Part shown: positions 4,668 through 35,969 of the stretch, piece by piece
How the letters are laid out: each line of letters starts with the position of its first letter
Numbering within the stretch: the first letter of the stretch is position 1
From: Pseudomonadota bacterium
Lineage (GTDB): Bacteria; Pseudomonadota; Alphaproteobacteria; JAAXGF01
Assembly (NCBI GenBank): GCA_022563655.1
Contig: JADFMW010000001.1
Location: 1-43,210 of the forward strand
Direction of reading: 5' to 3'
Length of the DNA: 43,210 bases
Translations under genes and position numbers: made by a program
The notes under the pieces: generated by a model
What the model saw: the letters and a program-made list of their open reading frames with translations, nothing else
Databases searched by the model: none
Told to the model about the DNA's origin: nothing

Positions 4668-4686
4668 CCAATCCTAACTCTACTAT

Positions 4687-4714: not shown

Positions 4715-4827
4715 GGATGCGCTATATGTTGCGCCAACTAGCAGGAGCTTGTCAATATCTATTTAGGGGGCTAATCAGCTACTAATAAGGCGTGCTCGCA
4801 AAGCCTTCGCTATAGACTCCCATCCTT

Positions 4828-9032: not shown

Positions 9033-9348
9033 CCCCGGCCATGGAATTCGTGCCGGCGCCGCTTCGCCTGCGGGGGCCCGTGGCCGATCAGTGGAAGCAC
9101 GCCGGTTACGCCGAATTGTGGCGCGCCGAGGCGTGCTGTGTGGCAGCGGCGGGGGGCGCGGCTAGGCCGCGCAGTCGGTCCCAACGCTTCGCAGTGACGC
9201 GATTAAGCGGCGGAGGATCCGCTGATGGCGATCCCGGCCTGGCGCTCGGCGTCTTCCGGCGTGAACGCGCTTGACCCGGCTGGGCGCAAACCTCTAAGTG
9301 AACGCAGCGCTGCCCTGGCGCGGCGGCCGTCATCCCCAAGGCATCTGC

Positions 9349-17029: not shown

Positions 17030-17116
17030 GCCGTATGGGCCCGTCTTCACGCGATGCCGGCGCGGCGGAAGGCCGGGCTTGGGTATAATGGGGGCGATGC
17101 CGAGGGATCTGATGAC

Positions 17117-20701: not shown

Positions 20702-20878
20702 TTCGGGCGCCCGCCGTCAGGACAACCGCCATCCCACCTCCGAGCAGTGGCCCCGAAGCGGTGGGCGGGCGTTCAAGACGCGAAGAGCGTCGGTCGCGCG
20801 CAGGCACGACGCGCACGCTCGTCCCTCGTTTCGAACCGGTCGTTTCCTCTACCCTGTGCGGCATTGAGACGTATCCCG

Positions 20879-21028
20879 TTAGCCCGACGACATGCCCGTG
20901 ATCACGACGTGCGGCGGGGCGTATCCGTGGCCGCTCGCCGCACACGTACGGGAGATCCCGTTCGGAGTGCGCGCGAGGGCCGGAATTCCCGCCGCCCGCA
21001 CGCCGAGCAGGATCGCCGCGATCGTCAT
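20879..21028 (-). CDS. Candidate small ORF (49 aa) in the intra-operon spacer
   Basis: Hand translation gives MTIAAILLGVRAAGIPALARTPNGISRTCAASGHGYAPPHVVITGMSSG*. Of the 48 codons after the ATG, 42 end in G/C, as in real genes here. It follows an AT-rich promoter-like stretch. It has no clear Shine-Dalgarno sequence and falls below the track's length cutoff. Confidence 0.3.
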   Translation of the reverse strand: MTIAAILLGVRAAGIPALARTPNGISRTCAASGHGYAPPHVVITGMSSG

Positions 21029-21329
21029 AGTCTAGTGCAAAATTCTAAAGCAAAACTGTTGTCCCTAGTTTTTTGCCGCACGACCGTCCCGGTCGGTCGC
21101 CTGAGTCAGTTGCCGGTGAAAATCAATCAGAGCCGCGCGCCCGTCTGTGACGGCCGTCACAGTAGCGCGAAAAATTACCAAACATGCCGCGACGATCGTC
21201 GCCGTAGCGGCGTCGGACGGCTGTGTGCGGATGGCGGCATCGATCTCTCAAAGCTGTGGGGCGGCGGGCAAAATCGTGGCGCAGAGGCTCCCGCGTTGCT
21301 TCGGCCTTTTCGGCGGTTCCGGTGGTTGC

Positions 21330-21437
21330 CTGAGAAGAGCGGTTAACCTGAGAAGAGCGGTTAACCTGAGAAGAGCGGTTAACCTGAGAAGAGCGGTTAA
21401 CCTGAGAAGAGCGGTTAACCTGAGAAGAGCGGTTAAG
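21330..21437. repeat. 18-bp x6 tandem repeat (CTGAGAAGAGCGGTTAAC; five perfect copies, sixth ends in G)
   Basis: Read directly. The five junctions between adjacent units each form the 8-bp palindrome GGTTAACC, giving five copies at 18-bp spacing. The repeat is intergenic, between the SBP gene and the permease genes. Confidence 0.95.
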
Positions 21438-21447
21438 ATGTCGAGGT

Positions 21448-21484
21448 AAAAAGGAAAACCGGCGTTCGCGGTGAGCAGAACGCG
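21448..21484 (-). terminator. Weak terminator or attenuator hairpin after the SBP gene
   Basis: The minus strand reads GCGTTC-(10-nt loop)-GAACGC followed by CGGTTTTCCTTTTT. The stem is short and the loop large. Confidence 0.3.
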
Positions 21485-21520
21485 ATCCCCTTGGAGGGCC
21501 GGGGGGCGGGGGTCTTGCCC

Positions 21521-23494: not shown

Positions 23495-25380
23495 GACGCG
23501 ATCTTGATCTGGTCGGCCGGGCCCGAGACGCGCACCATGTGGCCGCCGCCGAGGTCGAGCAGACTGGCCTTTGCCGAACCGTCAAGCGTGAACGGCGCTG
23601 GCCAGGCGGCCGGGTCCGAGCAGCGGTTGGCGGCCAGTGCACCGAAGTCCAGCCTGCGGGAGGGATCGGGCTCGGGCACCGCCGCCACCAGGGCCTTGGT
23701 GTATGGGTGCACCGGCTTGGTGAACAAATCCTCCTGCCGCGCGATCTCGATCAGCCGACCGGCGCACATCACGGCGATTCGGTCGGCGATATAGTTGACC
23801 ACCGCCAGGTTGTGCGAGATGAAGAGGTATGTCAGGCCGAGCTCGCGCTTCAGGTCCTTGAGCAGGTTCAGTACCTGCGCCTGGATCGAGACGTCGAGCG
23901 CCGAGACCGGCTCGTCGCAGATCAACAGATTCGGGTTCAGCGCGAGCGCGCGGGCGATGCCGATGCGCTGGCGTTGACCGCCCGAGAAGCTGTGCGGGTA
24001 ACGTCGCAGATAGCGCAGGTCGAGACCGACGAAGCGCATCAGCTGCTTGACCATCCAGGCACGCTCGTCGGCCGTGCCGATCCGGTGGATGACGAGTGGC
24101 TCGCTGATGATGTCGAACACGGTCATGCGCGGGTTCAGCGAGCTGTAAGGGTCCTGGAAGATGTACTGAACCTTGCGGCGGTATTCGAGCAGCGCGTCGC
24201 CCTCGAGGCTGAGCACGTCGGTCGCGTGTCCGCTGCCGTTGTACAGCACTTCGCCGGCGTCGGGGACGAGCGCGCGCATGATGATCTTGCTCGTCACCGT
24301 CTTGCCGCAGCCCGATTCGCCAACCAGACCGAGGCACTCGCCGCGCATGATGTCGAAGCTCACGTCGTCGACGGCCAAGTGGGGTTTAGAGTCCCCGCTG
24401 GCGAGCCAGCCGGTCTTGCGGCTGCCGAACGTTTTGCTCACGCCGCGCACGCGCAGCAGCGGGCCCGTCTCGTCGGCTTCCTTTGCAGGCGCCGTCTTGG
24501 GCGCGAGCGCCGTCGCGCTGCCCGGGCTGATTTCACGGATCGGCACCAGGCGCTCGCCGGGCCGCATGTCGAAGCGGGGGACCGCGTGCAGCAGCGCCTT
24601 GAGATAGGGGTGCTCGGGCCGGCGGAAAATGTCGTCGAGCGAGCCGCTTTCCATGACCTTGCCGTTGTACATCACGACGATCTCTTCGGCGACGTTGGCG
24701 ACGATGCCGAGGTCGTGGGTGATGATCAGGATCGCCATCCCGAGCTCGCGCTGGAGGTCAATCATCAACTTGAGGATTTGCGCCTGGATGGTGACGTCGA
24801 GCGCGGTGGTGGGCTCATCCGCGATCAGCAGCGCCGGCCGGCAGATGAGCGCCATCGCGATCATCGCCCGCTGGCGCAGCCCTCCCGACAGCTCGAACGG
24901 GTACGTCTTGAGCGCACCCACCGGGTCGGGAAAGCCGACCAACCGCAACATATCGGCGGTCATCTCGCGGCCGGTCCGGGTGTCGACCTTGAGGTGCAGG
25001 TGCAGCGCCTCGCCCACTTGGTCGCCGATGGTGTGAAGCGGCGACAGCGAGGTCATCGGTTCCTGGAAGATGATCGAAATACGCCCGCCGCGGATCGCCC
25101 GCATCTCGCTGGAGCCGGGGTCTAGCGCAGCGATGTCGACCTCGGTGCCCGGCTTGTCGGGGTCGGCGAACAGGATTTCGCCGCGCGCGAGGCGCGCCGT
25201 TTCGGGCAGTATCCCCATGATGGACTGCGACACGACCGATTTGCCCGACCCGGACTCGCCGACGAGAGCGACGGTGGAGCCTGGGAGGATGCGGAAGGAA
25301 ACCCCGTCGACCGCGGTGATGACGCCTTCCGGAAGGTCGAACTCGACCTTGAGGTCGCGAACGCGGAGCAGTTCGTCCAT
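23491..25380 (-). CDS. ABC transporter ATP-binding protein with two fused ATPase domains (DppD-DppF/YejF-like)
   Basis: Two Walker A motifs (GESGSGKS, GESGCGKT), two signatures (LSGGLRQR, FSGGQRQR) and two Walker B motifs (LLIADEPT, LLICDEPV). Confidence 0.9.
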   Translation of the reverse strand: MDELLRVRDLKVEFDLPEGVITAVDGVSFRILPGSTVALVGESGSGKSVVSQSIMGILPETARLARGEILFADPDKPGTEVDIAALDPGSSEMRAIRGGRISIIFQEPMTSLSPLHTIGDQVGEALHLHLKVDTRTGREMTADMLRLVGFPDPVGALKTYPFELSGGLRQRAMIAMALICRPALLIADEPTTALDVTIQAQILKLMIDLQRELGMAILIITHDLGIVANVAEEIVVMYNGKVMESGSLDDIFRRPEHPYLKALLHAVPRFDMRPGERLVPIREISPGSATALAPKTAPAKEADETGPLLRVRGVSKTFGSRKTGWLASGDSKPHLAVDDVSFDIMRGECLGLVGESGCGKTVTSKIIMRALVPDAGEVLYNGSGHATDVLSLEGDALLEYRRKVQYIFQDPYSSLNPRMTVFDIISEPLVIHRIGTADERAWMVKQLMRFVGLDLRYLRRYPHSFSGGQRQRIGIARALALNPNLLICDEPVSALDVSIQAQVLNLLKDLKRELGLTYLFISHNLAVVNYIADRIAVMCAGRLIEIARQEDLFTKPVHPYTKALVAAVPEPDPSRRLDFGALAANRCSDPAAWPAPFTLDGSAKASLLDLGGGHMVRVSGPADQIKIAS

Positions 25381-25844
25381 TACGCGTTCGCCGCTGATTC
25401 GTCGGAGGCGATTCCGAGGACGGCCAGGTTCTCCAGCGTCGGTGGGCTGAGGACCACGTGGTTGGCGCGCGCTGCGAACAACGCCTGGCGGGTGATGATC
25501 GGAAAGCCGTCGATCGACGAATCAAGCTTCACGGTGCGGCTCGCGCCCTTGAGCTTGAGGTGCATCCACCCTCCATGGCCGTCGCGTCGCGTTGAGTAAT
25601 AGCCGAGCGTCATAGCGTCTAAGTCTCGCCAGCGCAAGACCGCCCCGGCCGGCCCCACCACTCGAATCGCCTCGGTGGAGACCTCGATACGCGTCATGTG
25701 GCGAAAAGCGGTGCGCACCGCGAAGACGAGAAATAATGTGCCAAACGCGCCGAGGATATAGGCCATAACGGGTGCTGTGTGAAAAAACCATAAAGTGCCA
25801 AACAGCGCTATCCCGAGCGCGGCGCGGCCGTAGTCCGCAGCCAT
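25380..25844 (-). CDS. Small membrane protein (two TM helices plus soluble domain; possible bacterial-PH-like topology)
   Basis: 154 aa beginning MAADYGRAALGIALFGTLWFF. Its stop TAA shares one nucleotide with the ATPase ATG (TAATG). The longer track ORF to 26255 is Arg/Pro-rich and implausible. Confidence 0.6.
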   Translation of the reverse strand: MAADYGRAALGIALFGTLWFFHTAPVMAYILGAFGTLFLVFAVRTAFRHMTRIEVSTEAIRVVGPAGAVLRWRDLDAMTLGYYSTRRDGHGGWMHLKLKGASRTVKLDSSIDGFPIITRQALFAARANHVVLSPPTLENLAVLGIASDESAANA

Positions 25845-25870
25845 GGCACGGGTGGGGTAGCGGTGGCTGG

Positions 25871-26647
25871 TCACGGCCCGAGGCGCCGTCGCCTTGGCGC
25901 CGCGAAGGCATCCCTGGCGCTCATCCAGCGCGTTGCGGGATGTGCTGCCGTCGCCTCCAGGAACGCGCCGATGAATGCCCACGCCGCCTCGTCGTGGTCG
26001 CGATGGTGGCTCAAGAGGCCTGTGGGCTCGTCGCCGGCAGCGCGCGTCCGCCGCGCGCGCAGGTGCCCGACCGCCAGCGCGAGCGCCTCGTCGACGCCGA
26101 CGAAGCCGCGCGTCGCGCGCCAGTCGATGATATCGACGTGGGCGTTTACTTGGCGCAGGCCAGGGGCGGAGCGGGCGCGCGGGCCGTAGGTGGACAGCCC
26201 CGAGAAGCCGGCGCTGGCCAGACGGCCGACGAGTGCGCTGGCGATGCGGTTCCACGGCGGCACCAGCACGTCAAGCGCGCGCGCGCCGAACAATGCCGTG
26301 AGTCTGCGGCGGCCCGCGGCGAGCTCATCGAGCGCCTCGTCGGCGGAGCGCTCGGGGCCAAGCTCTGCCTTGCGTTTGCCAGGGGGCGCGTGGTTCAGGT
26401 GGGCGTAGCCGTGCTGGAGCACGTCGATATCGTCGCCGGAATCGACGCGGGCGGCGGTTTCGTCTTCGACCATTGCCGGGATCACCGCGAGCGCCAGGGG
26501 CGCCGCCGCCTGGGCCCGTAGGGCGAGCAGGCGATCGAGGGCCGGAATCGGCCGGGCGGAGTCATCGTCGCGCCACCACAAGGTGGCGGTGCGGCCTTCG
26601 CCGGCCCAACGGTCGAGTTCGTCGGTGAGCATGCACCAGTTACTCAT
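25871..26647 (-). CDS. Polysaccharide deacetylase (NodB-homology) family protein
   Basis: An Asp motif (WWRDDD) and a His motif (HGYAHLNH) are in the expected order. The start is at 26647 (overlapping the upstream stop by 8 nt) or 26632. Confidence 0.7.
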   Translation of the reverse strand: MSNWCMLTDELDRWAGEGRTATLWWRDDDSARPIPALDRLLALRAQAAAPLALAVIPAMVEDETAARVDSGDDIDVLQHGYAHLNHAPPGKRKAELGPERSADEALDELAAGRRRLTALFGARALDVLVPPWNRIASALVGRLASAGFSGLSTYGPRARSAPGLRQVNAHVDIIDWRATRGFVGVDEALALAVGHLRARRTRAAGDEPTGLLSHHRDHDEAAWAFIGAFLEATAAHPATRWMSARDAFAAPRRRRLGP

Positions 26648-27800
26648 CTTCGCGTTTCGCCCAAGTGGTGATCATGGCGGCGCTGCGCCCGGCGCCGTCG
26701 ACGGCGACGGCGCGGTGCGGCGGCCGTGGCGCGGCCAGCGCGGCGTCCACAGTGGTTGCGAGCCGCGCCGGCGTGAGGTCGCGCTCGTCGAGGCAACGCA
26801 CCAGCCCGAGCGCCTCGAGCCGTGCCGCCCGCAGGCTTTGCTCGGTCTGCCCGCCCCGCGAGAAGGGAACGATCACGGCTTGGGCGCGAGCCTGTAAGAT
26901 GTTTACGGCGGTATTATAGCCGCCCTGGGAGATCGACACAGCGCAATTCGCCAAGAGATCGGCGAAGTCGGGCCGGGCGCGTTCGACGATGACGCCGTTG
27001 GGGGCTTCGGCGGTGAGGGCCGCGAAGGCCTCGGCCGATAGGTTTTCTCCGGCGAGCAGCCGCCAGTCGAGGTCGCACCCCGATCGCGACAACGGGCGCG
27101 CCTCGAGCGCGGTCCGCAGCACGATCTCGCCAACGGCGCCGCCCCCCGCCGATGCCACCACCTCGTTCCAGCCCGGGGCGCCGGGGCCGCCGCGACGCCC
27201 GGCGGGCTCCGCTACGTAGCCGGTGTAGGAAATCATGTCGGCGATCTCGGCGGCGGCGGGGAAGCTCTCCTCGAAGCGGATTACCTTCGGGTCGCCGTGG
27301 ACCAGCACGGCGTCGAGGTAGCGCCGCGCCCAGGCCGCCGCCTCGGCGGTGCGCTTGGGCGCGCGCGCGGTCAGCACGTCGCGCACCGAAGAGACCACCC
27401 AGGGCCGCGGCGCGGCGGCGCGTGCGGCGGCGAGCAGCGGCAGCAGCTCGAAGCGCAGCTGGCGGCGCCCGAACGGGAACATCTCGACGACCAGCACGTG
27501 CGGTTTGACCCGCGCGAACAGGTCGAGCAGCATGGTGCGGCGGCGATCCAGCCACGCCGCGTCCGGCGCCCGGCCGTCTGCGCAGACAAGGGCGCTGAAA
27601 CTCTCGTCGCGGCTGCGCAGCGGCGGCAGTTGCACCAGCGCCGCGCCGCCCACGTCGAGCCCCGCGACCGGCTCCCCCCCGCTCGCCACCGTCACTTCGA
27701 GGTCGCGGGCGGCGCACGCGCGGGCCAGCGCGACGGCGCGCCTCAAGTGACCGATGCCGAGCAGGTGCTGGACATAGAACAGGACGCGACGGCGCGTCAC
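26640..27800 (-). CDS. Glycosyltransferase, COG4671-like (GT-B fold), paralog 1
   Basis: N-terminal RRVLFYVQHLLGIGHLRR matches the paralog at 30792-32018 (RRILIYSHDTFGLGHLRR). The GTG start at 27800 overlaps the upstream stop (GTGA). The track ORF to 28007 is an extension. Confidence 0.7.
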   Translation of the reverse strand: MTRRRVLFYVQHLLGIGHLRRAVALARACAARDLEVTVASGGEPVAGLDVGGAALVQLPPLRSRDESFSALVCADGRAPDAAWLDRRRTMLLDLFARVKPHVLVVEMFPFGRRQLRFELLPLLAAARAAAPRPWVVSSVRDVLTARAPKRTAEAAAWARRYLDAVLVHGDPKVIRFEESFPAAAEIADMISYTGYVAEPAGRRGGPGAPGWNEVVASAGGGAVGEIVLRTALEARPLSRSGCDLDWRLLAGENLSAEAFAALTAEAPNGVIVERARPDFADLLANCAVSISQGGYNTAVNILQARAQAVIVPFSRGGQTEQSLRAARLEALGLVRCLDERDLTPARLATTVDAALAAPRPPHRAVAVDGAGRSAAMITTWAKREDE

Positions 27801-28387
27801 GATAGCTCGAGCGGCAGGTTCAGCCGTTCGACCGCGGGCGCGCCGTCGGCGGCGAGGGTGAACAGATGGGCGCAATCCCAGGCGAGGGGCGCTGGCAGCG
27901 TGCCGGTCATGTCCCAACCCGTGGCCTGCGCCACGATCGCGCGAATCACGCCCTTGTGGGTGACGGCGACCAGTGGGCGTTTGCGCGCCGCCACTTCTGC
28001 AAGCCACGGCGCGAGGCGCGCCTGCACGTCGCGCGGGCTTTCGCCGCCGTCGGGGCGAAAGTCGAGGCCGCGCGCTTCGTTCTCCGCGATCGCCGCGCCG
28101 AACTCATCGCGCAGCGCCGCCAGGCGGCGCCCTTCCCAGCGGCCCCAGTCCATCTCGGTGAGCCGCGCCTCGATCGCGATGTGCTTGACGCCCATGAGCC
28201 GCGCCGTATCGCGGGCGCGGACCAGCGGGCTCGAGGCCCAGTCGGCGCCGGCGAGCTGGGCGGGCGGCCGCCTGCGGGCGGCGGCGGCGCGGCCGCGCGG
28301 GCTCAGCGGCACGTCGGTCCGCCCCTGGATCCGGCCTTGCTCGGTCCAAGCGGTCGCCGCATGCCGGATGAGCGCGAGCCGCGTCAT
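27797..28387 (-). CDS. Histidine phosphatase (phosphoglycerate-mutase-like) family protein
   Basis: 196 aa beginning MTRLALIRHAATAW (RH catalytic motif) with a later VTHKGVIRA. Its ATG overlaps the upstream GT4 stop (ATGA). Confidence 0.8.
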   Translation of the reverse strand: MTRLALIRHAATAWTEQGRIQGRTDVPLSPRGRAAAARRRPPAQLAGADWASSPLVRARDTARLMGVKHIAIEARLTEMDWGRWEGRRLAALRDEFGAAIAENEARGLDFRPDGGESPRDVQARLAPWLAEVAARKRPLVAVTHKGVIRAIVAQATGWDMTGTLPAPLAWDCAHLFTLAADGAPAVERLNLPLELS

Positions 28388-29532
28388 GCGCCGGCGTGCG
28401 CGAGGGCGAGCGCCCGTTCGAGCGTCGCGCTCGCCGCCGCCAAGCCGTGGCGCTCCTCGACGGATGCGGCCGCCGCGGCGCCGAGCACGGCGCGTAATCG
28501 GCGATCGTCGAGCAGCTGGCGGACCGCCGCGGCGAACGCGCCATCGTCGCCGGCGGGAGTGAGCACGCCGGTCTTGCCCGAGCGTACCACCTCGGCGACG
28601 CCGCGGACGCGCCCGGCGACCACGGGCAGCCCGGCCGCCTGCGCCTCGAGTACGGCCATGCCGTAGGCCTCGTCGACCGCAGGCCAGACAAAGGCGTCGG
28701 CCGCCGCGTAGAACGCCGGCAACGCCTCGGGCGGGCGCGCTCCGGCGTAGACGACCCGCTCGCCACCGAGGGGGCCGAGCGCCGCCTCTACCTCGGCCCG
28801 CGCCGGGCCCGCGCCGACGACGAGCAATCGCCACTCGAGGTCGGTGACGCGCCCGAGGGCGGCGCCGAGCCGGCGATACGAGGCGAGCTTGTCGCCGCGC
28901 CGCATCATGGCGACGGCGAGCAACCACGGCGGCTCCGCGTCGAGACCGAGCTCGGCGGCGATTTTTCCGCGGTGCGCCGCGCGCGCCCTCTGTGCCGCCC
29001 GATACGGCGCAACGTCGAGGAACGGCGGCAGGGAAAGCAAGCGCTCGGGCGCGCGCACCAGAGGGCGCAGACATTCGGCGTCGTCTTCGGTCAGCGCCAG
29101 CACCGCGTCGGCCCGGGCCAGCGCCGCCGCCACGGCGGCGTGGCCGTCAGCCCACGGACCGTTGGCCTGCTTGGGCGCGAACGAGGGCTCGGCCACCAGG
29201 TACGGGATGCCGAGCGCGCGGCCGACCTCGGGGCCGAGCCAGTCGGGCGCCTTGTGGTAAAGGTGATAGGTAAACCACGCAGCCGGACGCTCGTGCTTGG
29301 GCGCCGCGCGGTACCGGCGCACCAGCGCCGCGGCCTCGGCCGCGCCCCGGGCGCGGATCGCCGCTTGCCGCGCGGCGTTGCCCTCGCCCTCGTAGCTGCG
29401 CAGGGTCGAGGCCAGGTCGACCGCGTGGCCCGCCGTTTCCAGCGCGGCCATGATCAGCCCGGCCATGCGGCGGTCGCCCGAGGGAACCGCGTGTGTCGGC
29501 GCCTTGAGCGGAGCGTAGAAGGCGATTCGCAT
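28384..29532 (-). CDS. Glycosyltransferase family 4 (GT-B)
   Basis: 382 aa beginning MRIAFYAPLKAPTHAVPSGD. The C-terminal E-x7-E-like region is PAVDEAYGMAVLEAQAAGLPVVA. Confidence 0.8.
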   Translation of the reverse strand: MRIAFYAPLKAPTHAVPSGDRRMAGLIMAALETAGHAVDLASTLRSYEGEGNAARQAAIRARGAAEAAALVRRYRAAPKHERPAAWFTYHLYHKAPDWLGPEVGRALGIPYLVAEPSFAPKQANGPWADGHAAVAAALARADAVLALTEDDAECLRPLVRAPERLLSLPPFLDVAPYRAAQRARAAHRGKIAAELGLDAEPPWLLAVAMMRRGDKLASYRRLGAALGRVTDLEWRLLVVGAGPARAEVEAALGPLGGERVVYAGARPPEALPAFYAAADAFVWPAVDEAYGMAVLEAQAAGLPVVAGRVRGVAEVVRSGKTGVLTPAGDDGAFAAAVRQLLDDRRLRAVLGAAAAASVEERHGLAAASATLERALALAHAGA

Positions 29533-29553
29533 CGGCGGCCGCCCGATGCCGCT

Positions 29554-30780
29554 TCAGCGCGCGAGGCCGAACTTCGCCGCGAGCTGGCTGCTCCCGCGGC
29601 TCATGGAGAAGGACTCGCGCACCCGCTCCTGGCCGGCTCTTCCGAGGCGCGCGCGCAGCGCCGGGTCGGCGATCAGCGCCGCCAGCGCCGCGCTCAGGGC
29701 GGCGCGGTCGCGCGGCGCCACCAGGCAGCCGGTGACGCCGTCGTCGATCAACTCGGGGATCGCCGACAGCCGGGTCGCCAGTACCGCAAGCCCTTGCGAC
29801 TGCGCTTCCATCAGCACGTTGGGCAGACCGTCGCGGTCGCCATCGTTGGCGACGCGGCTGGCGAGCACGAAGAGGTCGGAGGCGCGGTAATGCTCGAGCA
29901 CCACGTCCTCGGGTTGTGCGCGGAGCCATTGGACGCGGCCGTCGAGGCCGGCCGCGCGGGCTTGGCGCCGGAGCGCCGCGAGCAACGGCCCGTCGCCGAT
30001 ATGAACGAACCGCCAATTGACCTCGCGCGGCAGCGTGGCCAGCGCCGCCAGCAGGTCGTCGTAGCCTTTCTTGGCCACGGCGCGGCCCACCGACAGGATG
30101 GTGACGGGATCGTCGGCGGCAGCGCCGTCGCGCGGTGGGCGCACGCGCTCGGCGGCGGGGAAGCGGCCCGGGTCGAGGCCGTGGTAGGCCAGCTCGACGC
30201 GGCCCGGCGGGGCCAGCTGGGCGAGGTGGTCGCGGCCCGCCGCGGTGCAGGTGACCAACCATCGGCATTCGGCGAGCTTCTCGGCCTTCTCCCAAGTGGG
30301 CGAGGTCCAGATGTCCTTGGCGTGCGCCGAGCAGCTCCAGGGCAGTCCGGTGAGCAGGCTGGTATAGCGCGCGACCGACGCCGGAGTGTGCAGGAAGTGA
30401 GCGTGCAGGTGGTTCACCCCCGGCGGCAGCTCTCGCGCCAGCACCAGCGCCTGGCCGAAGCGGCGCACCCGGTTGGGGCTGAGGTCGCGGGCCAGGTCGC
30501 GCAGCCAAGCCCACCGCGCCGCCCGATAGCGAGGATTTCGCCTCGCCGCCCGCCAGCCGCGCCACACCCGTAGCGGCTCGCGCCACAGGTACTCCGGCAG
30601 GTATGTCACGGGGGCTTTGATGCGGGCATGGATGGGATGGACGTGGGGGTCCGTCGGGTGGCGCAGCGAAACGATGGCGATGTCGAGCCCACGCTCTTCG
30701 AGGGCGAGGATTTCCTGGGCGATGAAGGTCTCGGAGAGCCGGGGGTAGCCCTTGAGGATGAAGGCGACCGTGCCGAGCAC
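29554..30780 (-). CDS. Glycosyltransferase family 4 (WcaL-like)
   Basis: N-terminus VLGTVAFILKGYPRLSETFIAQEI is typical of this subgroup. C-terminal region GLPNVLMEAQSQGLAVLAT. The GTG start at 30780 lies 11 nt after the upstream stop. The track ORF to 32184 is an out-of-frame read-through. Confidence 0.75.
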   Translation of the reverse strand: MLGTVAFILKGYPRLSETFIAQEILALEERGLDIAIVSLRHPTDPHVHPIHARIKAPVTYLPEYLWREPLRVWRGWRAARRNPRYRAARWAWLRDLARDLSPNRVRRFGQALVLARELPPGVNHLHAHFLHTPASVARYTSLLTGLPWSCSAHAKDIWTSPTWEKAEKLAECRWLVTCTAAGRDHLAQLAPPGRVELAYHGLDPGRFPAAERVRPPRDGAAADDPVTILSVGRAVAKKGYDDLLAALATLPREVNWRFVHIGDGPLLAALRRQARAAGLDGRVQWLRAQPEDVVLEHYRASDLFVLASRVANDGDRDGLPNVLMEAQSQGLAVLATRLSAIPELIDDGVTGCLVAPRDRAALSAALAALIADPALRARLGRAGQERVRESFSMSRGSSQLAAKFGLAR

Positions 30781-30791
30781 AGCCTCGTCCC

Positions 30792-32018
30792 CTACCGCGA
30801 TCGGCCGATCCGCGCGACGCCGCCGGCGCGGTTGCCCTCGGCGAGCCGCATGGCGACCAGCCGATTGAGGTTGACGAAGCCATCCAGGAGACCGGGTATG
30901 ACGACCTCCGAGGGCAGCCGCTGCTGCGGCAGGCGCCTGAGCGCCGTCGCCATGGCGGCCGGGTCGCGCCGGCCGGTGTCGTCCAGCATTGCGACCAGCC
31001 CGAGGTCGCTGAAGCGCGAGGCGCGGATGTACTGCTCCATGCGCGGCACCCGGCGCGGCACGATGATCGCGCGCTTGTCGAACGACAGGATCTCGCAGAA
31101 CGTGTTGTAGCCGCCCATGGCGACGACGCCGGCGGCGCGCGCCATCAAGCTCTCCAGGTAGGCGTCGAAGACGACGGCCGTAACGCGCGGCAGCTTGTTC
31201 ACGCGCTCTTGGAACTGGGCCTGCAGCTCGGGCTGCATGAACGGTCCGAAGACCAGAAGCGCATTCCACGGCGGTGGCGAGCTGCATTCGTAAGCACTCA
31301 GCACCCAGTCGATCAACGCTTCGCCATCGCCGCCACCCCCGCCGGTAACCAGAACGTAAGGTTCCTTGATTCTCTCGATCACTCCGGAAAGCGGTGTGCT
31401 GGCAGGCACCGTCCGCGGCAGGTAGCCCGTGAACGCGACCTTCTTGCGCACGTCTGCCGGCAGGCCGATGTCGGCGATCGGGTCGTAAATTTGCGGCAAG
31501 CCGTAGATCCAGATGTCGTCGTAAAGATGGCGCAGCGCGGGCAGCACGTTCTTGCGCCGCCACTCGGGCCGCAGCAGGCTGGGTTCGTCGAGCACGTCGC
31601 GCAGGCCGAGCACGATGCGCGTGCCGCGCTGCTTGAGCATCTCCAGGGTCTCCTTGATCTCGCCGCGCAGGCCCAGCGGCTCCTTGTCGACGATGAAGAT
31701 GTCCGGGCCGAAGATGCCGGCGGTGTGCAGGATGATCGATGCCCGCATGGCGAGCGTCTGCTCGATGTCGATGTGCAGGTTGAGCGTGGTGTACTCGCCG
31801 TTGCGCAGCTTGATGACGCCGGGGATGCGGACGAAGTCGACCCGCGCGCGGAAGTCGAAGCTGCCGATGATCGGCGAGCCCGAAAGTATCAGCACCGAAA
31901 GCTGCTTGTGCTCCTCGACCAGGGCGTGGGCAATGGCGCGGCAGCGGCGCAGGTGGCCGAGACCGAAGGTGTCGTGGCTGTAGATCAGGATCCTTCGTCC
32001 CGCGGCAGGTTTGTTCAT
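30792..32018 (-). CDS. Glycosyltransferase, COG4671-like (GT-B fold), paralog 2; first gene of the operon
   Basis: Start at the ATG at 32018 (MNKPAAGRRILIYSHDTFGLGHLRR) with an upstream GAAGGGGG Shine-Dalgarno sequence. 408 aa. Confidence 0.75.
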   Translation of the reverse strand: MNKPAAGRRILIYSHDTFGLGHLRRCRAIAHALVEEHKQLSVLILSGSPIIGSFDFRARVDFVRIPGVIKLRNGEYTTLNLHIDIEQTLAMRASIILHTAGIFGPDIFIVDKEPLGLRGEIKETLEMLKQRGTRIVLGLRDVLDEPSLLRPEWRRKNVLPALRHLYDDIWIYGLPQIYDPIADIGLPADVRKKVAFTGYLPRTVPASTPLSGVIERIKEPYVLVTGGGGGDGEALIDWVLSAYECSSPPPWNALLVFGPFMQPELQAQFQERVNKLPRVTAVVFDAYLESLMARAAGVVAMGGYNTFCEILSFDKRAIIVPRRVPRMEQYIRASRFSDLGLVAMLDDTGRRDPAAMATALRRLPQQRLPSEVVIPGLLDGFVNLNRLVAMRLAEGNRAGGVARIGRSR

Positions 32019-32307
32019 CGCTTGGGCCCCCTTCGCTGTGCCACACCGGCCGACGCATCCGCCGGGCGCGGTGCTGCGAGCCGGCCAGTCTGACCGGTCG
32101 CGCGCATCTGCGCAATTCGTTTGAATGTTTGCCGACCTTGGCACGGCGCGCAAAGACGGAAGCATCGATTGCGCGAACACACAAGTTTGTGCGCTGGCGA
32201 CCGAGGCAAAAGCCATTTACGCTTGCGCGAAGCTAGGCTAACGTTGCGTGCGACGCGTGCAAGGGAAACAGCGGGCATCGTCACCGATTCGGGAACGGGC
32301 AAGAGTC

Positions 32308-34971
32308 ATGGAGCAAAGTATATATAAATTCGTTCTTCGATATAGTAAAACACAGCAGATTTTTGTGTTGCTGGTCACAGTATGTTCTCTGCCATTTTAT
32401 TACGTATCGTTGGACATACCAAAAAAAATAGTTAATGGCGCGTTGGAGGGAGGGCCCGAGGATTTTCCCAAGCCGCTAGAGTTCTTTGGCATCAAGGTCG
32501 TTGATCTCGATCAACTTGTGCTGTTGTTCGCTCTGTGCGGCGTGTTCCTCGTGCTCGTCTGCATCAACGGCGGCTTCAAGTTCTACATCAACGTCTACAA
32601 GGGCCTGTTGGGCGAGCGCATGCTGCGCCGCCTGCGCTACCAGCTCTACAGCCGCATCCTGCGCTTTCCCTTGCCGCACTTTCGCAAGGTCTCGCAAGGC
32701 GAGCTGATCCCGATGATCACCCAAGAGGTCGAGCCGCTCGGCGGCTTTATCGGCGACGCCTTCGCGCTGCCCATGCACCAGGGCGGGCTGTTGCTGACCG
32801 CCCTGGTGTTCATTATGGTGCAAGATTGGCGGATGGGCGTTGCCGCGATCGCGTTCTATCCCGTGCAGGGCTACATCATTCCCAAGCTGCAGCGGCGGGT
32901 GAACCTGCTCGGCAAGCAGCGGGTGAAGGAGGTGCGCAAGCTGTCGGAGCGCATCGGCGAGACGGTTTCCGGCGCCCAGGAGATCCACGCCTACGACACC
33001 TCGCAATACGAGCTCGCTGATTTCGGCCACCGCCTGGGGCGCATCTTCGACATCCGCTATCAGATCTACCGCAAGAAATTCTTCATCAAGTTCCTCAACA
33101 ACTTCATGAATCAGCTGACGCCGTTTTTCTTCTTTGCGATCGGCGGCTACCTGGTGATCAAGGGGGAACTTTCGCTCGGCTCGCTGGTGGCCGTGCTGGC
33201 GGCGTACAAGGATCTCGCGCCGCCATGGAAAGAGCTTCTGAACTACTACCAGATGAAGGAAGACTCGCGCATCAAGTACGACTCGGTCGTCTCACAGTTC
33301 GCGCCGCCCGGCATGCGCGATGAAGCGCAGCTCGACGCCGAGGTCGACGCGGCGGAGCCGCTGAGCGGAGAGTTGGTGGTGGGCAATCTCACGCTCAGCG
33401 AGGACGACGTCAGGGTGGTCGACGGGGTGTCGTTCTCCCTGGGCGTCAATGAGCGCCTCGCCATCGTCGGCGCCGGCGGCAGCGGCAAGGAGGAGTTGAC
33501 GCTTCTGCTGGCGCGCCTGCTCGACCCCACGGGCGGTCGCATCACCATTGGCGGCAAGGACATCAAGACGCTGCCCGAGGCGGTTACCGGCCGCCGCATC
33601 GCCTATGTCGGCGCCAACGCGCAGTTGTTTTCGGCGAGCATCGGCGACAACCTGTTCTACGGCCTCAAGCACCGTCCGTCGCAGGAGGCCGGGTACGATG
33701 CTAAAACGGCGGCGCTGCGTCGCGATGCATTGGCCGAGAGCGCGCGCGCCGGCAACACCACGCGCGACATTTTCGCCGACTGGATCGACTACGCCGCCGC
33801 CGGCGCCGACTCGCCCTCGGAGCTCACCGCGGCGGCGATCCGCGCGCTCACGGTCGCCGAGATGGTCGACGACGTTTATCAGTTCGGCCTGCGCGGCACG
33901 ATCGACCCGTCGGCGCACGCCGAACTCGCCACGCGTATTCTGCGTGCGCGGACAGCGCTGCGAGAGCGCCTTGCCGATCCCGATCTCGCCGGCCTTGTCG
34001 AGTTTTTTGACAACGAGAAATACAACACCAACGCCACGGTGGCCGAAAACCTGCTGTTCGGCACTCCCGTCGACGACACCTTCGACATGGAACGGTTGGC
34101 CGAGAACGCTTACGTGATGTCGGTGCTCGACCGGTGCGGCCTGACCGAAGACCTGCTCGCCATGGGCCACGAGATCGCCGGCACCATGGTCGAGATGTTC
34201 TCGGACCTGCCGGCCGAGCACGAGTTCTTCGAGCAGTTCAGCTTCATCCGCGCCGACGATCTGCCCGACTACAAGGAGCTGATCGGCCGGGTCGATAAGG
34301 ATAAGCTCGAAACGCTGAGCGAGGACGAACGGCACAAGCTTTTGTCGCTGCCGTTCAAGCTGGTCCCCGCGCGCCACGCGCTGGGGCTCGTCGACGACGT
34401 CATGCAGCCGCGCCTGCTCGAAGCGCGCAAGACCTTCGCCCGCGATCTGCCGGACAATTTATCGTCGGCAGTGGAGTTCTTCGCTCCCGACCGATACAAC
34501 GCCGCCTCGACGTTGCAGGACAACATATTGTTCGGCAAGCTTGCCTACGGTAAGGCGCAGGCGGCGACGCGCATCGGGGCGCTGATCTCGGAGGTGATCA
34601 GCGAGCTTGACCTGTATACGGCGGTGGTCGCAGCGGGGCTTGAATTCCAGGTTGGCATCAGCGGCTCGCGGCTGTCGGACGCCCAGCGGCAGAAGCTGGC
34701 GATCGCGCGCGCCGTACTGAAGCGCCCCGATATCTTGGTCGTCTCGGAAGCCACCGCGAGGCTCGACGGCGCCACCCAGACGAAGGTCACGAAAAATTTG
34801 CTTACCGAATTCGAAGGACGCGGGCTGATCTGGGCGTTGCACCGCCCAAGCCTTGCCAATCAGTTCGAGCGGGTTCTCGTGATGCGTGGCGGGAAGGTGG
34901 TCGAGCACGGTAAGTTCTCGGAGCTCGACCAGCCCGACACGCATTTCAAGATGCTGATCGCGGCGGAATAG
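32308..34971 (+). CDS. ABC exporter-type fusion (transmembrane domain plus atypical, expanded nucleotide-binding domain)
   Basis: 887 aa from the ATG at 32308 (MEQSIYKFVLRY). The N-terminal half is a multi-helix ABC_membrane-like region. In the NBD, Walker A is GAGGSGKE (33469-33492), the signature is LSDAQ, Walker B is ILVVSE, and the H-loop is ALHRPS. Confidence 0.8.
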   Translation: MEQSIYKFVLRYSKTQQIFVLLVTVCSLPFYYVSLDIPKKIVNGALEGGPEDFPKPLEFFGIKVVDLDQLVLLFALCGVFLVLVCINGGFKFYINVYKGLLGERMLRRLRYQLYSRILRFPLPHFRKVSQGELIPMITQEVEPLGGFIGDAFALPMHQGGLLLTALVFIMVQDWRMGVAAIAFYPVQGYIIPKLQRRVNLLGKQRVKEVRKLSERIGETVSGAQEIHAYDTSQYELADFGHRLGRIFDIRYQIYRKKFFIKFLNNFMNQLTPFFFFAIGGYLVIKGELSLGSLVAVLAAYKDLAPPWKELLNYYQMKEDSRIKYDSVVSQFAPPGMRDEAQLDAEVDAAEPLSGELVVGNLTLSEDDVRVVDGVSFSLGVNERLAIVGAGGSGKEELTLLLARLLDPTGGRITIGGKDIKTLPEAVTGRRIAYVGANAQLFSASIGDNLFYGLKHRPSQEAGYDAKTAALRRDALAESARAGNTTRDIFADWIDYAAAGADSPSELTAAAIRALTVAEMVDDVYQFGLRGTIDPSAHAELATRILRARTALRERLADPDLAGLVEFFDNEKYNTNATVAENLLFGTPVDDTFDMERLAENAYVMSVLDRCGLTEDLLAMGHEIAGTMVEMFSDLPAEHEFFEQFSFIRADDLPDYKELIGRVDKDKLETLSEDERHKLLSLPFKLVPARHALGLVDDVMQPRLLEARKTFARDLPDNLSSAVEFFAPDRYNAASTLQDNILFGKLAYGKAQAATRIGALISEVISELDLYTAVVAAGLEFQVGISGSRLSDAQRQKLAIARAVLKRPDILVVSEATARLDGATQTKVTKNLLTEFEGRGLIWALHRPSLANQFERVLVMRGGKVVEHGKFSELDQPDTHFKMLIAAE

Positions 34972-34995: not shown

Positions 34996-35454
34996 ATGAG
35001 CTTGCAGGAAGACGTTGAACGGCTGCGCAGCATCCCGTTGTTCGCCAAGATCGAGCCGAGCAAGCTGAAGCTGCTCGCCTTTACCGCTCAGAGGGTCACG
35101 TTCAACTCCGGCGAAAATCTGTTCCGCCAGGGCGACGTCGGCGACGCCGCCTACATCATTACCAGCGGCACCGCCGACGTGGTGGTTGCCACTCCGAACG
35201 GGCCCCTCACCGTCGCGCAGGTGGGCACCAACGACTTCGTCGGCGAGATCGCGATCCTCTGCGACGTACCGCGCACCGCCACCGTCACGGCGACCAGCAC
35301 GTTGATGACGATGCGCATATCGAAGGAGCTGTTCTTCGAGCTGGTTTCTCAGTTTCCCGAGATCTCGGTGGAGATCATGCGCGTGCTGGCGCATCGCCTC
35401 GACGTGACAACGCGCCAACTGCAAGACGCGCTGAGCAAGCTCAAGGCCGGGTAA
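34996..35454 (+). CDS. Stand-alone cyclic-nucleotide-binding (CAP-effector) domain protein
   Basis: 152 aa with CNB hallmarks LFRQGDVGDAAYIITSGTADV and FVGEIAILCDVPRTATVTA. There is no DNA-binding or other output domain. It starts 24 nt after the ABC gene. Confidence 0.85.
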   Translation: MSLQEDVERLRSIPLFAKIEPSKLKLLAFTAQRVTFNSGENLFRQGDVGDAAYIITSGTADVVVATPNGPLTVAQVGTNDFVGEIAILCDVPRTATVTATSTLMTMRISKELFFELVSQFPEISVEIMRVLAHRLDVTTRQLQDALSKLKAG

Positions 35455-35474: not shown

Positions 35475-35969
35475 GTGAGTCGGCTTGACAGCTTCATCCG
35501 CCGCCTCTGCGCCCAGCGCGACTGCCTCGTGCTGGGCGCCAGGCTGATCGCCGATGTGCCCGGCCCGGTGCTCGAGTTCGGCCTCGGCAACGGGCGTACG
35601 TACGACCACCTGCGCGGCCTCCTCCCCGAGCGCGAGATCTTTGTATTCGACAGGCGCATCGCCGCCCATCCCGACTGCATCCCAGATCCCGAGCACATGC
35701 TGCTCGGGGATCTGCACGACACCCTGCCGCGAGCGAGCGAGCGCATTCACGAGCCGGCGGCGCTCGCCCACTTCGATATCGGCCTCGTTGACGCCGCGGC
35801 AAACGCGGCGCTGTGCGCCTTCGTGGCGGGTTGGGCGGCGCCGTTGATGGCGCGCGGCGGGGTCGTCGCCTCCGACCAGGAGCTGGCCGCGCCCGGCTGG
35901 CTTGCGCTGCCGCTGCCCGGGGGCGTCGCCGAAGGCCGCTACTTCATGTACCGGGTGACCGGCGCGTAG
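35475..35969 (+). CDS. Hypothetical protein, possible small SAM-methyltransferase fold
   Basis: 164 aa with a GTG start. VLEFGLGNGRTYDHL resembles a glycine-rich motif I. The functional call is weak. Confidence 0.45.
   Translation: MSRLDSFIRRLCAQRDCLVLGARLIADVPGPVLEFGLGNGRTYDHLRGLLPEREIFVFDRRIAAHPDCIPDPEHMLLGDLHDTLPRASERIHEPAALAHFDIGLVDAAANAALCAFVAGWAAPLMARGGVVASDQELAAPGWLALPLPGGVAEGRYFMYRVTGA

What the first reader, a model, noticed from the sequence alone, without database searches (positions are those of the whole stretch)
32308..34971. ABC exporter with non-canonical ATPase motifs and a roughly 290-aa internally repeated insertion in the NBD
**Seen in the sequence**
- Walker A is GAGGSGKE, with Glu where the Mg-coordinating Ser/Thr normally sits.
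- Walker B is ILVVSE, with Ser replacing the conserved Asp while the catalytic Glu is kept.
- The signature is LSDAQ rather than LSGGQ.
- The Q-loop Gln, D-loop (ARLD) and H-loop His are retained.
- The Walker A Lys and the signature are about 395 residues apart, against about 100 in typical exporters as I recall.
- The extra sequence carries two additional copies of the exporter motif that normally occurs once after the Q-loop. The three copies are SASIGDNLFYG (aa 442-452), NATVAENLLFG (575-585) and ASTLQDNILFG (733-743).
- The second and third copies are each preceded by an FF-x-x-x-(K/R)-Y-N string.

**Inference**
- The helical-subdomain segment has been triplicated.
- The Ser-to-Glu and Asp-to-Ser changes could be a compensatory swap at the Mg site, or they could mark a regulatory, non-hydrolytic NBD.
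- The protein is probably a homodimeric half-transporter, so both ATP sites would carry these changes.
Basis: partly seen in the sequence, partly recalled or inferred. Interest (0 to 1): 0.72.

Follow-up and report, generated by a model that had tools for sequence, protein, structure and literature searches.

The report
Degenerate ABC exporter with triplicated subdomain
This gene encodes a membrane exporter of the ABC type whose ATP-binding engine has lost most of its catalytic signature residues, has gained a 280-residue insertion made by copying one of its own segments twice, and is paired with a cyclic-nucleotide sensor protein; it belongs to a large, widespread and so far undescribed family.

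Summary
ORF 32308-34971 (+) encodes an 887-aa half-size type IV ABC exporter. [quoted passage not shown]

One claim is wrong. The canonical Q-loop Gln position is Ala436; Q439 is off-register and not conserved. The A-loop aromatic residue is also missing.

The triplication is supported by profile-profile comparison (unit 2 vs 3: E 5e-15; unit 1 vs 3: E 1e-7). The insertion folds confidently (pLDDT 93) but matches nothing in Pfam or the PDB.

It is not an artefact. At least 926 protein clusters (50% identity) and at least 558 species genomes, mostly Rhodospirillales and other Alphaproteobacteria, carry the same architecture.

Across the family the catalytic residues drift (Walker A Lys in 29/61), while the repeated (D/E)NLLFG motifs are invariant.

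A stand-alone cyclic-nucleotide-binding protein follows the gene in 69/77 loci and is fused to the exporter in other clades. A conserved glycosyltransferase cluster is transcribed divergently.

Best reading: a cyclic-nucleotide-regulated, weakly or non-hydrolytic exporter-like protein for a glycoconjugate. This is a new variant of a known kind; its function is untested.

The parts
32308..34971 (+). Gene for the 887-aa ABC exporter-like half-transporter. The start is ATG 32308; an in-frame GTG at 32248 is unlikely because homologues begin MExSIFKF.
32308..33312 (+). Transmembrane domain (aa 1-335). It has six long TM helices of the type IV exporter fold and is the most conserved part of the protein.
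   Evidence: - Pfam ABC_membrane, E 2e-26.
- AF2 helices.
- Foldseek hits to TmrAB, MsbA, NdvA and PCAT1.
- Conservation by region.
33364..33663 (+). N-terminal part of the NBD (aa 353-452). It has no A-loop aromatic residue, a Walker A ending GKE, and a Q-loop strand with Ala436 at the Gln position.
33469..33492 (+). Walker A GAGGSGKE (aa 388-395). Glu395 sits at the Ser/Thr position.
   Evidence: -.
- E in 41/43 close homologues.
- E14/S12/D11 among distant representatives.
33565..33918 (+). Repeat unit 1 (aa ~420-537). It comprises a pre-Q helix, strand IAYV, SASIGDNLFYG, a ~42-aa unit-specific sub-insertion, and a helix ending GLRG.
   Evidence: hhalign vs unit 3: P 92-94%, E 7e-7 to 1e-7.
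33664..34503 (+). The insertion (aa 453-732). It is all-alpha with two short strands, has no Pfam family and no PDB fold match.
   Evidence: - (no Pfam hit at E <= 10).
- pLDDT 92.9.
- best Foldseek E 1.6.
- found only inside this exporter family, 926 clusters.
33919..34401 (+). Repeat unit 2 (aa ~538-698). It comprises helix ILRARTALRERL, strand LVE, FFDNEKYN, NATVAENLLFG, a helix ending GL..G, and ~80 unit-specific residues. N581 and G585 are invariant in the family.
34402..34653 (+). Repeat unit 3 (aa ~699-782). It comprises helix LLEARKTFARDL, strand VEF, FFAPDRYN, ASTLQDNILFG and a helix ending GLEFQVG. It runs straight into the signature motif and is the copy that matches canonical profiles on the C-terminal side.
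34672..34686 (+). Signature motif LSDAQ (aa 789-793). The family consensus is L-S-x-[A/T]-Q.
34732..34749 (+). Walker B ILVVSE (aa 809-814). Ser813 sits at the Asp position and the catalytic Glu814 is kept.
34840..34842 (+). H-loop His845.
   Evidence: His in 39/43 close homologues but not conserved in distant ones.
34996..35454 (+). Stand-alone cyclic-nucleotide-binding domain protein (152 aa, no HTH). It lies 24 nt downstream with its own RBS. Its phosphate-binding cassette GEIAIL..PRTATV is intact.
   Evidence: -.
- Directly downstream in 69/77 loci.
- Fused to the exporter C-terminus in other clades.
25380..32018 (-). Divergently transcribed conserved cluster. It contains a GT28-like gene, an EpsE-like GT4, a second GT4, a histidine phosphatase, a GT28_C gene, and two proteins of unknown family.
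   Evidence: synteny.

Best explanation
**What it is**
The gene encodes a half-size type IV (ABCB-like) ABC exporter whose NBD has been remodelled in two ways.

1. The segment from the pre-Q-loop helix to the next helix-loop is present three times in tandem (aa ~420-537, 538-698, 699-782).
   - The segment runs through the Q-loop strand and the (D/E)N(I/L)LFG helix.
   - The result is a ~280-aa, well-folded, all-alpha insertion with no counterpart in Pfam or the PDB.
2. The ATP site is non-canonical throughout.
   - There is no A-loop aromatic residue.
   - Walker A ends GKE.
   - Ala occupies the Q-loop Gln position.
   - The signature is LSDAQ.
   - Walker B is hhhhSE.

**The family (shown)**
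- It is one member of a large uncharacterised family.
- The insertion is always present, while the catalytic residues drift.

**How it most likely works (inferred)**
- The conserved job of this NBD is not canonical ATP hydrolysis.
- The protein is made together with a small cyclic-nucleotide-binding protein, and most likely binds it.
- The remodelled NBD is inferred to act as a regulatory, dimerisation or docking module. In this clade it may still bind ATP through Lys394, Glu814 and His845.
- That module would couple the cAMP/cGMP level to the opening of the exporter's transmembrane domain.
- The cargo is probably a glycolipid or oligosaccharide made by the divergently transcribed glycosyltransferase cluster.
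For: **Architecture**
- Searches show the domain layout and motifs.
- AF2 gives pLDDT 86 overall and above 90 for the NBD and insertion.
- Foldseek matches the whole model to type IV exporters.

**Triplication**
-, with E values down to 5e-15.

**Family size and constant position of the insertion**
- 926 clusters.
- At least 558 species genomes.
- More than 120 full-length homologues.

**Degenerate site across the family**
- Walker A Lys 29/61, Walker B Asp 18/61, H-loop His rare.
- N581 and G585 are 61/61.
- 0 of 295 members have more than 6 of 8 canonical features.
- The RecA-like N-terminal part has only 1 of 100 columns at 90% conservation or more among distant members.

**CNBD partner**
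- Directly downstream in 69/77 loci, with gaps of 9-98 nt in 68 of them and 297 nt in one.
- C-terminal fusion in 15 of 60 representatives, plus 2 of 60 with an added GGDEF domain.
- Intact PKA/PKG-like binding cassette.

**Glycosyltransferase cluster synteny**
-.
Against: - No biochemical data exist. ATP binding, hydrolysis, transport and cyclic-nucleotide binding are all untested.
- In the close clade, GKE, SE, the catalytic Glu and the H-loop His are conserved (40-41 of 43). This could mean a working, rewired ATPase rather than a regulatory one.
- The link to the glycosyltransferase cluster rests on synteny only.
- The physical contact between the CNBD and the NBD or insertion is inferred from operon linkage and gene fusion, not modelled.
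Confidence: 0.55

Rival explanations
1. The protein is a fully active ATP-driven exporter with a rewired Mg2+ site. Glu395 in Walker A would coordinate Mg2+ in place of Ser/Thr, and Ser813 would take the place of the Walker B Asp. This is a carboxylate swap. The insertion would be an accessory domain.
For: - GKE (41/43) and hhhhSE (40/43) are conserved together in the close clade, while the Q-loop column varies in the same sequences.
- The catalytic Glu814 and His845 are kept.
- Among near-independent representatives, an acidic residue at 395 goes with non-Asp at 813 (20:3). The split is 21:14 for non-acidic residues (p = 0.039) and 6:7 for Ser/Thr (p = 0.018).
Against: - The A-loop aromatic residue is missing and the Q-loop Gln is replaced (Ala here; Gln in only 22/43 of the close clade).
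- The second signature Gly is lost.
- In the wider family the Walker A Lys itself is lost in about half of the members, and GKE occurs with N, D or S at 813.
- The covariation test is not tree-aware.
Confidence: 0.25
2. The protein is not a transporter. It would be an ABC-exporter-derived membrane receptor or signal transducer. The transmembrane domain would sense a ligand or membrane state, and the degenerate NBD with its insertion would relay this to the CNBD (and, in some clades, to a GGDEF-like domain) or to the glycosyltransferases.
For: - Catalytic motifs are degenerate across the family.
- Some relatives are fused to a CNBD and to a GGDEF-like domain at the C-terminus, the usual place of output domains.
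- Those GGDEF domains are themselves degenerate.
Against: - The transmembrane domain is the most conserved region and keeps the full six-helix exporter architecture.
- The conserved neighbourhood is a glycoconjugate biosynthesis cluster that would need an exporter.
- No output domain is present in this clade.
Confidence: 0.2
3. The protein is one half of a heterodimeric exporter. Its partner, encoded elsewhere, would supply a canonical ATP site, as in TmrAB or TM287/288.
For: Degenerate sites are common in heterodimeric and full-length exporters (review PMC7756269).
Against: - No second ABC_membrane gene lies in the two syntenic loci whose genes were listed.
- None turned up among the window ORFs that were scanned; a few candidate ORFs were not scanned.
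- Both the Walker A/B side and the signature side of this NBD are non-canonical, so neither composite site of a heterodimer would be fully canonical.
Confidence: 0.08
4. The feature is an artefact: a frameshift or assembly error, a pseudogene, or an insertion of a known accessory domain.
For: None found.
Against: - The ORF is continuous, with GC3 of 0.83.
- Homologues are full-length and collinear, several of identical length.
- The insertion is found in 926 clusters, always at the same place.
- It has no Pfam or PDB match.
- It is predicted with high confidence.
Confidence: 0.01

Closest known systems
Homodimeric type IV ABC exporters (MsbA, NdvA/ChvA cyclic-glucan exporter, HepA, PCAT1 core)
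   Same: - Same domain order (TMD then NBD) and the same six-helix ABC_membrane fold.
- These are the best sequence and fold matches.
- The link to glycoconjugate synthesis genes resembles NdvA and HepA.
   Different: - NCBIfam scores are far below every equivalog cut-off, for example MsbA 220 vs 602 and NdvA 171 vs 733.
- The NBD is interrupted by 280 aa.
- The A-loop, Walker A S/T, Q-loop Gln, signature GG and Walker B Asp are all non-canonical.
Heterodimeric or full-length exporters with one degenerate ATP site (TmrAB, TM287/288, ABCC1, CFTR, SUR)
   Same: - They have non-canonical catalytic residues.
- A degenerate site is used for structural or regulatory ATP binding rather than turnover (review PMC7756269).
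- CFTR and SUR (recalled from my own knowledge) show that ABC exporter folds can serve as gated channels or regulators.
   Different: - Those proteins always keep one consensus site.
- Here a single gene with no partner found would give two identical degenerate sites, and both faces of the NBD are altered.
- Their substitutions are typically catalytic Glu to Asp and H-loop changes, not Walker A S/T to Glu with Walker B Asp to Ser.
HetC of Nostoc PCC 7120 and TIGR03896-type CNBD proteins next to bacteriocin exporters
   Same: An ABC exporter is functionally tied to a cyclic-nucleotide-binding-type domain (PMC10986499; weak TIGR03896 hit of the partner protein).
   Different: - HetC is a peptidase-containing exporter with an N-terminal CNBD, a C39 peptidase domain and a catalytically required ATPase.
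- Here the CNBD is a separate downstream protein or a C-terminal fusion.
- There is no peptidase domain, and the ATPase motifs are degenerate.
ABC ATPases with large insertions between Walker A and the signature (Rad50/SMC coiled coils, UvrA insertion domains, ABCF arm)
   Same: A long insertion separates the N-terminal and C-terminal halves of the cassette. This comparison is from my own knowledge and was not tested here.
   Different: - Those are soluble, catalytically active ATPases.
- Their insertions are coiled coils or zinc modules.
- The insertion here arose by internal triplication of the Q-loop/helical-subdomain segment and has no fold match to them.
SbmA/BacA-type transporters
   Same: They use an ABC-exporter-like transmembrane fold without ATP hydrolysis, being proton-driven. 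This is recalled from my own knowledge and gives a precedent for ATP-independent use of the fold.
   Different: SbmA/BacA lack an NBD altogether, whereas here a complete but degenerate NBD is kept and enlarged.

Membership tests
Type IV (ABCB-like) ABC exporter half-transporter | N-terminal six-helix ABC_membrane (PF00664) domain | tested here: met
   - Pfam E 2e-26, aa 68-297.
- Six long helices in the AF2 model.
- Foldseek TM about 0.6 to TmrAB, MsbA, NdvA and PCAT1.
Type IV (ABCB-like) ABC exporter half-transporter | C-terminal ABC_tran (PF00005) nucleotide-binding fold | tested here: met
   Pfam E 1.7e-17, in two stretches. NCBIfam profiles match 372-470 and 733-885.
Type IV (ABCB-like) ABC exporter half-transporter | Walker A GxxGxGK[S/T] | tested here: not met
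   GAGGSGKE. Glu in 41/43 close homologues.
Type IV (ABCB-like) ABC exporter half-transporter | Q-loop Gln at the canonical position | tested here: not met
   Ala436 aligns with the P-glycoprotein Gln. The column is Q22/A14/P4 in close homologues.
Type IV (ABCB-like) ABC exporter half-transporter | Signature LSGGQ | tested here: not met
   LSDAQ. The family consensus is LSx[A/T]Q, and S.G is kept in only 11/295.
Type IV (ABCB-like) ABC exporter half-transporter | Walker B hhhhDE | tested here: not met
   ILVVSE. Ser in 40/43 and the catalytic Glu is kept.
Type IV (ABCB-like) ABC exporter half-transporter | H-loop His | tested here: met
   His845, present in 39/43 close homologues. It is not conserved in distant members.
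Type IV (ABCB-like) ABC exporter half-transporter | ATP hydrolysis-driven substrate export | not testable with these tools
   Needs ATPase and transport assays.
MsbA, NdvA/ChvA and HepA equivalogs (NCBIfam) | Whole-protein score above the curated cut-off | tested here: not met
   MsbA 219.9 vs 602; HepA 188.6 vs 725; glucan exporter 170.8 vs 733.
Heterodimeric exporters with one degenerate site (TmrAB or TM287/288 type) | Two adjacent half-transporter genes, one supplying a consensus site | tested here: not met
   - No second ABC_membrane gene in the two syntenic loci whose genes were listed.
- None among the window ORFs that were scanned; a few candidate ORFs were not scanned.
- A partner encoded elsewhere cannot be excluded.
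CNBD-containing peptidase exporters (HetC type) | C39 peptidase domain and N-terminal CNBD on the exporter | tested here: not met
   Pfam finds only ABC_membrane and ABC_tran. The CNBD is a separate downstream gene or a C-terminal fusion in relatives.
The family itself: CNBD-linked exporter-like proteins with a triplicated helical-subdomain insertion (unnamed) | ~280-aa insertion after the first xNLxYG motif, with invariant ENLLFG and QDNILFG copies | tested here: met
The family itself: CNBD-linked exporter-like proteins with a triplicated helical-subdomain insertion (unnamed) | CNBD encoded immediately downstream or fused at the C-terminus | tested here: met
   Window gene 34996-35454; 69/77 loci; fusions.

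The most novel reading that the evidence does not exclude
The family could be an ABC-exporter-derived machine that no longer runs on ATP hydrolysis. Cyclic-nucleotide binding to the partner CNBD, docked on the triplicated helical subdomain, would drive or gate NBD dimerisation and so the transmembrane gate. That would make it a second-messenger-gated exporter, channel or receptor built on the type IV ABC fold, with two identical degenerate sites.
Probability: 0.3. Interest if true: 0.85.

Novelty: new variant of a known kind. Interest (0 to 1): 0.62.

Why it matters
- ABC exporters are understood as ATP-hydrolysis-driven pumps, and degenerate sites are known only next to a consensus site.
- Here a widespread bacterial family apparently has a single-gene architecture in which both ATP sites would be non-canonical.
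- In this family the catalytic residues drift while a self-duplicated insertion and a cyclic-nucleotide sensor are conserved.
- It would therefore be a natural test case for what an ABC cassette can do without canonical catalysis: regulatory ATP binding, second-messenger gating, or signalling.
- It would also define a new, foldable all-alpha domain that arose by internal triplication of the Q-loop/helical subdomain.
- It flags a conserved, uncharacterised glycoconjugate gene cluster in Rhodospirillales, including cultured Azospirillum, Inquilinus, Sneathiella and Nisaea, that can be studied genetically.

Tried and rejected
- **Known accessory domain in the insertion.** Pfam on the insertion and on its two halves gave no hit at E <= 10. 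Foldseek against the PDB gave at best E 1.6 and TM <= 0.16. Rejected.
- **Relic signature helices.** I tested whether the helices ILRARTALRERL (540-556) and LLEARKTFARDL (699-712) are relics of the signature helix QKLAIARAVL, prompted by invariant A-R pairs. hhalign gave E 0.4-0.5. The weak collinear match TLSEDERHKL vs RLSDAQRQKL gave E 0.05-0.08. Neither is significant, so I dropped the idea.
- **The double ABC ATPase as an energising partner.** It sits at the end of the divergent operon. It is a GsiA/YejF/Dpp-type importer ATPase followed by a family-5 binding protein and a permease, so it is an ordinary importer.
- **Contig look-up.** The look-up of encoding contigs on the window's own protein returned nothing.
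- **Literature.** Four full-text searches found no description of this family, of a GKE/SE site or of the insertion.
- **Model geometry.** Coordinates are not exposed, so I could not superpose the three units or analyse the NBD dimer interface.
- **GGDEF fusions.** The fused GGDEF domains lack a GG[D/E]EF motif, so they do not show an enzymatic output.
Full report
**1. The observation**

ORF 32308-34971 (+) is open and encodes 887 aa. An in-frame GTG at 32248 exists, but homologues start at the Met of MEQSIYKF.

- GAGGSGKE 388-395
- LSDAQ 789-793
- ILVVSE 809-814
- ARLD 817-820
- SASIGDNLFYG 442-452
- NATVAENLLFG 575-585
- ASTLQDNILFG 733-743
- FFDNEKYN 566-573
- FFAPDRYN 724-731

Lys394 and Leu789 are 395 residues apart.

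Pfam finds ABC_membrane (aa 68-297, E 2e-26) and ABC_tran in two stretches. NCBIfam exporter models match about 72-470 and then about 733-885, skipping about 260-280 residues. Alignments to P-glycoprotein show the same split.

One claim fails. In those alignments the canonical Q-loop Gln falls opposite Ala436. Q439 lies three residues further on, in a column that is Tyr/Phe in relatives. The A-loop aromatic residue is also absent: there is a gap opposite the 'SYP' of P-glycoprotein, and the column is Asp/Glu in the family.

**2. Not an artefact**

- More than 120 proteins of 870-960 aa align to 100% of the query at 57-86% identity, several with exactly 887 aa.
- GC3 of the ORF is 0.83, as for neighbouring genes.
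- A search of 1.84 billion representatives with the insertion alone (aa 453-732) found 926 proteins at E <= 1e-3 and 248 at E <= 1e-30.
- In every full-length hit listed, the match lies at about residues 450-730 of an 820-1200-aa protein; the shorter hits appear to be fragments.
- A scan of one genome per species found at least 558 genomes with a relative.
- These are mostly Rhodospirillales and other Alphaproteobacteria. Cultured carriers include Azospirillum soli, A. halopraeferens, Inquilinus limosus, Nisaea, Sneathiella and Zavarzinia.
- All source annotations are generic ('ABC transporter ATP-binding protein').

**3. The insertion is a triplication**

- Pairwise, aa 543-585 and 702-743 are 42% identical (E 7e-8).
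- With family profiles, unit 2 (about 545-620) matches unit 3 (about 704-777) over 64-73 columns, with probability 98% and E 1.4e-14 to 4.6e-15.
- Unit 1 (about 420-532) matches unit 3 with probability 92-94% and E 7e-7 to 1e-7, once a 42-residue sub-insertion in unit 1 is gapped.
- Unit 1 vs unit 2 gives E 2e-5.

The repeated module has four parts:
- a helix (ILxARxxL in units 2 and 3);
- a short strand (IAYV, LVE, VEF);
- the loop FDxxxYN;
- the helix (D/E)N(I/L)LFG, followed by a further helix ending in GL..G.

Unit 3 runs straight into the signature motif. The DSSP pattern of the AF2 model repeats accordingly.

- AF2 predicts the whole NBD and insertion at pLDDT above 90.
- The insertion alone reaches pLDDT 92.9.
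- The insertion has no Pfam match at E <= 10.
- It has no significant PDB fold match; the best is E 1.6 with TM <= 0.16.

The full model matches type IV exporters such as TmrAB, MsbA, NdvA and PCAT1.

**4. The ATP site**

In 43 close homologues:

| Position | Residues observed |
|---|---|
| Walker A | G-x-x-G-S-G-K-E (Glu 41/43) |
| Walker B | hhhh-S-E (Ser 40/43, Glu 40/43) |
| Signature | L-S-x-[A/T]-Q |
| H-loop | His 39/43 |
| Q-loop column | Gln 22, Ala 14, Pro 4 |

In 60 more distant full-length representatives (27-54% identity) the alignment remains clean, but the catalytic positions drift:

| Position | Residues observed |
|---|---|
| Walker A Lys | K29 R13 A9 Q3 G2 |
| Walker A Ser/Thr position | E14 S12 D11 R6 H4 |
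| Q-loop | P19 A13 Q6 |
| Walker B Asp position | N29 D18 S5 |
| Catalytic Glu position | E21 D15 G5 H4 |
| H-loop | A/P/R/S/Q, His rare |

- By contrast, N581 and G585 of copy 2 are 61/61. N739 and G743 of copy 3 are 58/58 and 60/61.
- Among 295 full-length members, none has more than 6 of 8 canonical features and only one has 6.
- Among distant members, only 1 of 100 columns in the RecA-like N-terminal part reaches 90% conservation. The figures are 32 of 335 for the transmembrane domain and 11 of 280 for the insertion.
- The family-wide constraint therefore lies on the transmembrane domain and the repeated motifs, not on catalysis.
Among 58 representatives, an acidic residue at 395 goes with non-Asp at 813 in 20 of 23. 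The figure is 21 of 35 for other residues (Fisher p = 0.039) and 6 of 13 for Ser/Thr (p = 0.018).
- This test ignores phylogeny.
- GKE also occurs with Asn or Asp at 813.

**5. Partner and neighbourhood**

- Its phosphate-binding cassette (GEIAIL..PRTATV) is intact. Its best structural relatives by sequence are PKA and PKG regulatory domains.
- The same gene lies directly downstream on the same strand in 69 of 77 loci. The gap is 9-98 nt in 68 of them and 297 nt in one.
- In other clades the CNBD is fused to the exporter's C-terminus. This is the case in 15 of 60 full-length representatives. Two more carry a GGDEF-like domain as well, which lacks the GG[D/E]EF motif.
- Together these are gene-fusion ('Rosetta stone') evidence that the two proteins work together.
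- Upstream and divergent lies a conserved cluster:
  - a GT28-like gene;
  - an EpsE-like GT4;
  - a second GT4;
  - a histidine phosphatase;
  - a GT28_C gene;
  - two proteins with no family.
- A GsiA/YejF-type importer follows on that strand. It is an ordinary importer.
- No second half-transporter gene lies in the two syntenic loci whose genes were listed. None turned up among the window ORFs that were scanned.
- A few candidate ORFs, near 12.8-17.0 kb and 36-40.6 kb, were not scanned.

**6. Mechanism**

Shown:
- a type IV exporter scaffold;
- a triplicated, well-folded insertion;
- a non-canonical ATP site whose residues are not conserved across the family;
- an obligate genetic link to a CNBD;
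- synteny with glycosyltransferases.

Inferred:
- The NBD with its insertion serves as a regulatory or docking module rather than a canonical motor.
- The CNBD conveys cAMP/cGMP levels to it.
- The cargo is a glycoconjugate from the neighbouring cluster.

In this particular clade ATP binding may persist, through Lys394, Glu814 and His845. A rewired Mg2+ site with real turnover cannot be excluded (rival 1).

The fusion architectures also leave room for a receptor-like, non-transport role (rival 2). A distant heterodimer partner is unlikely, because both faces of the cassette are altered (rival 3).

**7. Comparison with known systems**

- It works most like homodimeric lipid or glycan exporters (MsbA, NdvA) in layout. 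It fails their equivalog cut-offs by a wide margin and fails five of the motif criteria of a canonical cassette (membership table).
- Degenerate sites are well known, but next to a consensus site in heterodimers or full transporters (PMC7756269).
- A CNBD on an ABC exporter has a published precedent in HetC. That protein is a peptidase-containing exporter with an N-terminal CNBD and a required ATPase (PMC10986499).
- Four full-text searches found no description of this family, the insertion or the GKE/SE site.

**8. Verdict**

- The Q-loop claim was corrected. Three points were added: family-wide degeneracy, the CNBD partner with its fusions, and the conserved glycosyltransferase neighbourhood.
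- It is a new variant of a known kind: an uncharacterised but abundant subfamily of ABC exporters.
- Interest is moderate to high for transporter specialists. It is limited by the absence of any functional data and by my inability to model the dimer or the CNBD complex.

Noticed in passing
window 17054-18466 (+): A 470-aa protein with a class III adenylate/guanylate cyclase catalytic domain (Pfam E 3.7e-18) lies about 14 kb from the exporter/CNBD pair. It is a possible source of the cyclic nucleotide. Its co-occurrence across genomes was not examined.
   Followed up: no
window 25380-25880 and 25871-26647 (-): Two proteins of about 166 and 258 aa have no Pfam or NCBIfam match. They sit inside the glycosyltransferase operon and are conserved in 42 and 43 of 55 syntenic loci.
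   Followed up: partly
window 19658-25380 (-): A GsiA/YejF/Dpp-type importer follows the glycosyltransferase operon on the same strand. It comprises a fused double ATPase (23491-25380), a family-5 binding protein (21521-23494) and a permease (19658-20701). The ATPase start overlaps the preceding gene's stop in relatives, and the ATPase is present in 39/55 syntenic loci.
   Followed up: partly
window 35475-35969 (+): A Methyltransf_17 (SAM-dependent methyltransferase) gene lies right after the CNBD gene and is conserved there in 33/55 loci.
   Followed up: partly
window 9298-12143 (+): Sulfate-activation genes are present: a CysD-like PAPS_reduct-family protein and a CysN/CysC (GTPase plus APS kinase) fusion. 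A link to sulfation of a glycan was not examined.
   Followed up: no
window 32018-32308: The GT28-like gene most likely starts at the ATG at 32018 (MNKPAAGRRILIY...) rather than at 32216. That leaves a 290-bp divergent intergenic region containing a small palindrome, CACAAGTTTGTG (32180-32191).
   Followed up: no
relatives P0188, P0227, P0304-P0309, P0323, P0373: Exporter-CNBD-GGDEF fusion proteins (1156-1206 aa) have a GGDEF domain with no [G/A/S]G[D/E]EF motif. This is a second degenerate nucleotide-handling domain in the same family.
   Followed up: partly
relatives P0149, P0150, P0155: Three 50%-cluster representatives have scrambled, Arg/Gly-rich C-terminal regions in place of the signature and Walker B motifs. 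These are probably frameshifted metagenomic gene calls. I excluded them from the covariation test.
   Followed up: partly
window 32001-33000: GC content drops to 0.586 over the transmembrane-domain part of the exporter gene, against 0.65-0.75 in flanking kilobases. A similar dip occurs at 4001-5000.
   Followed up: no
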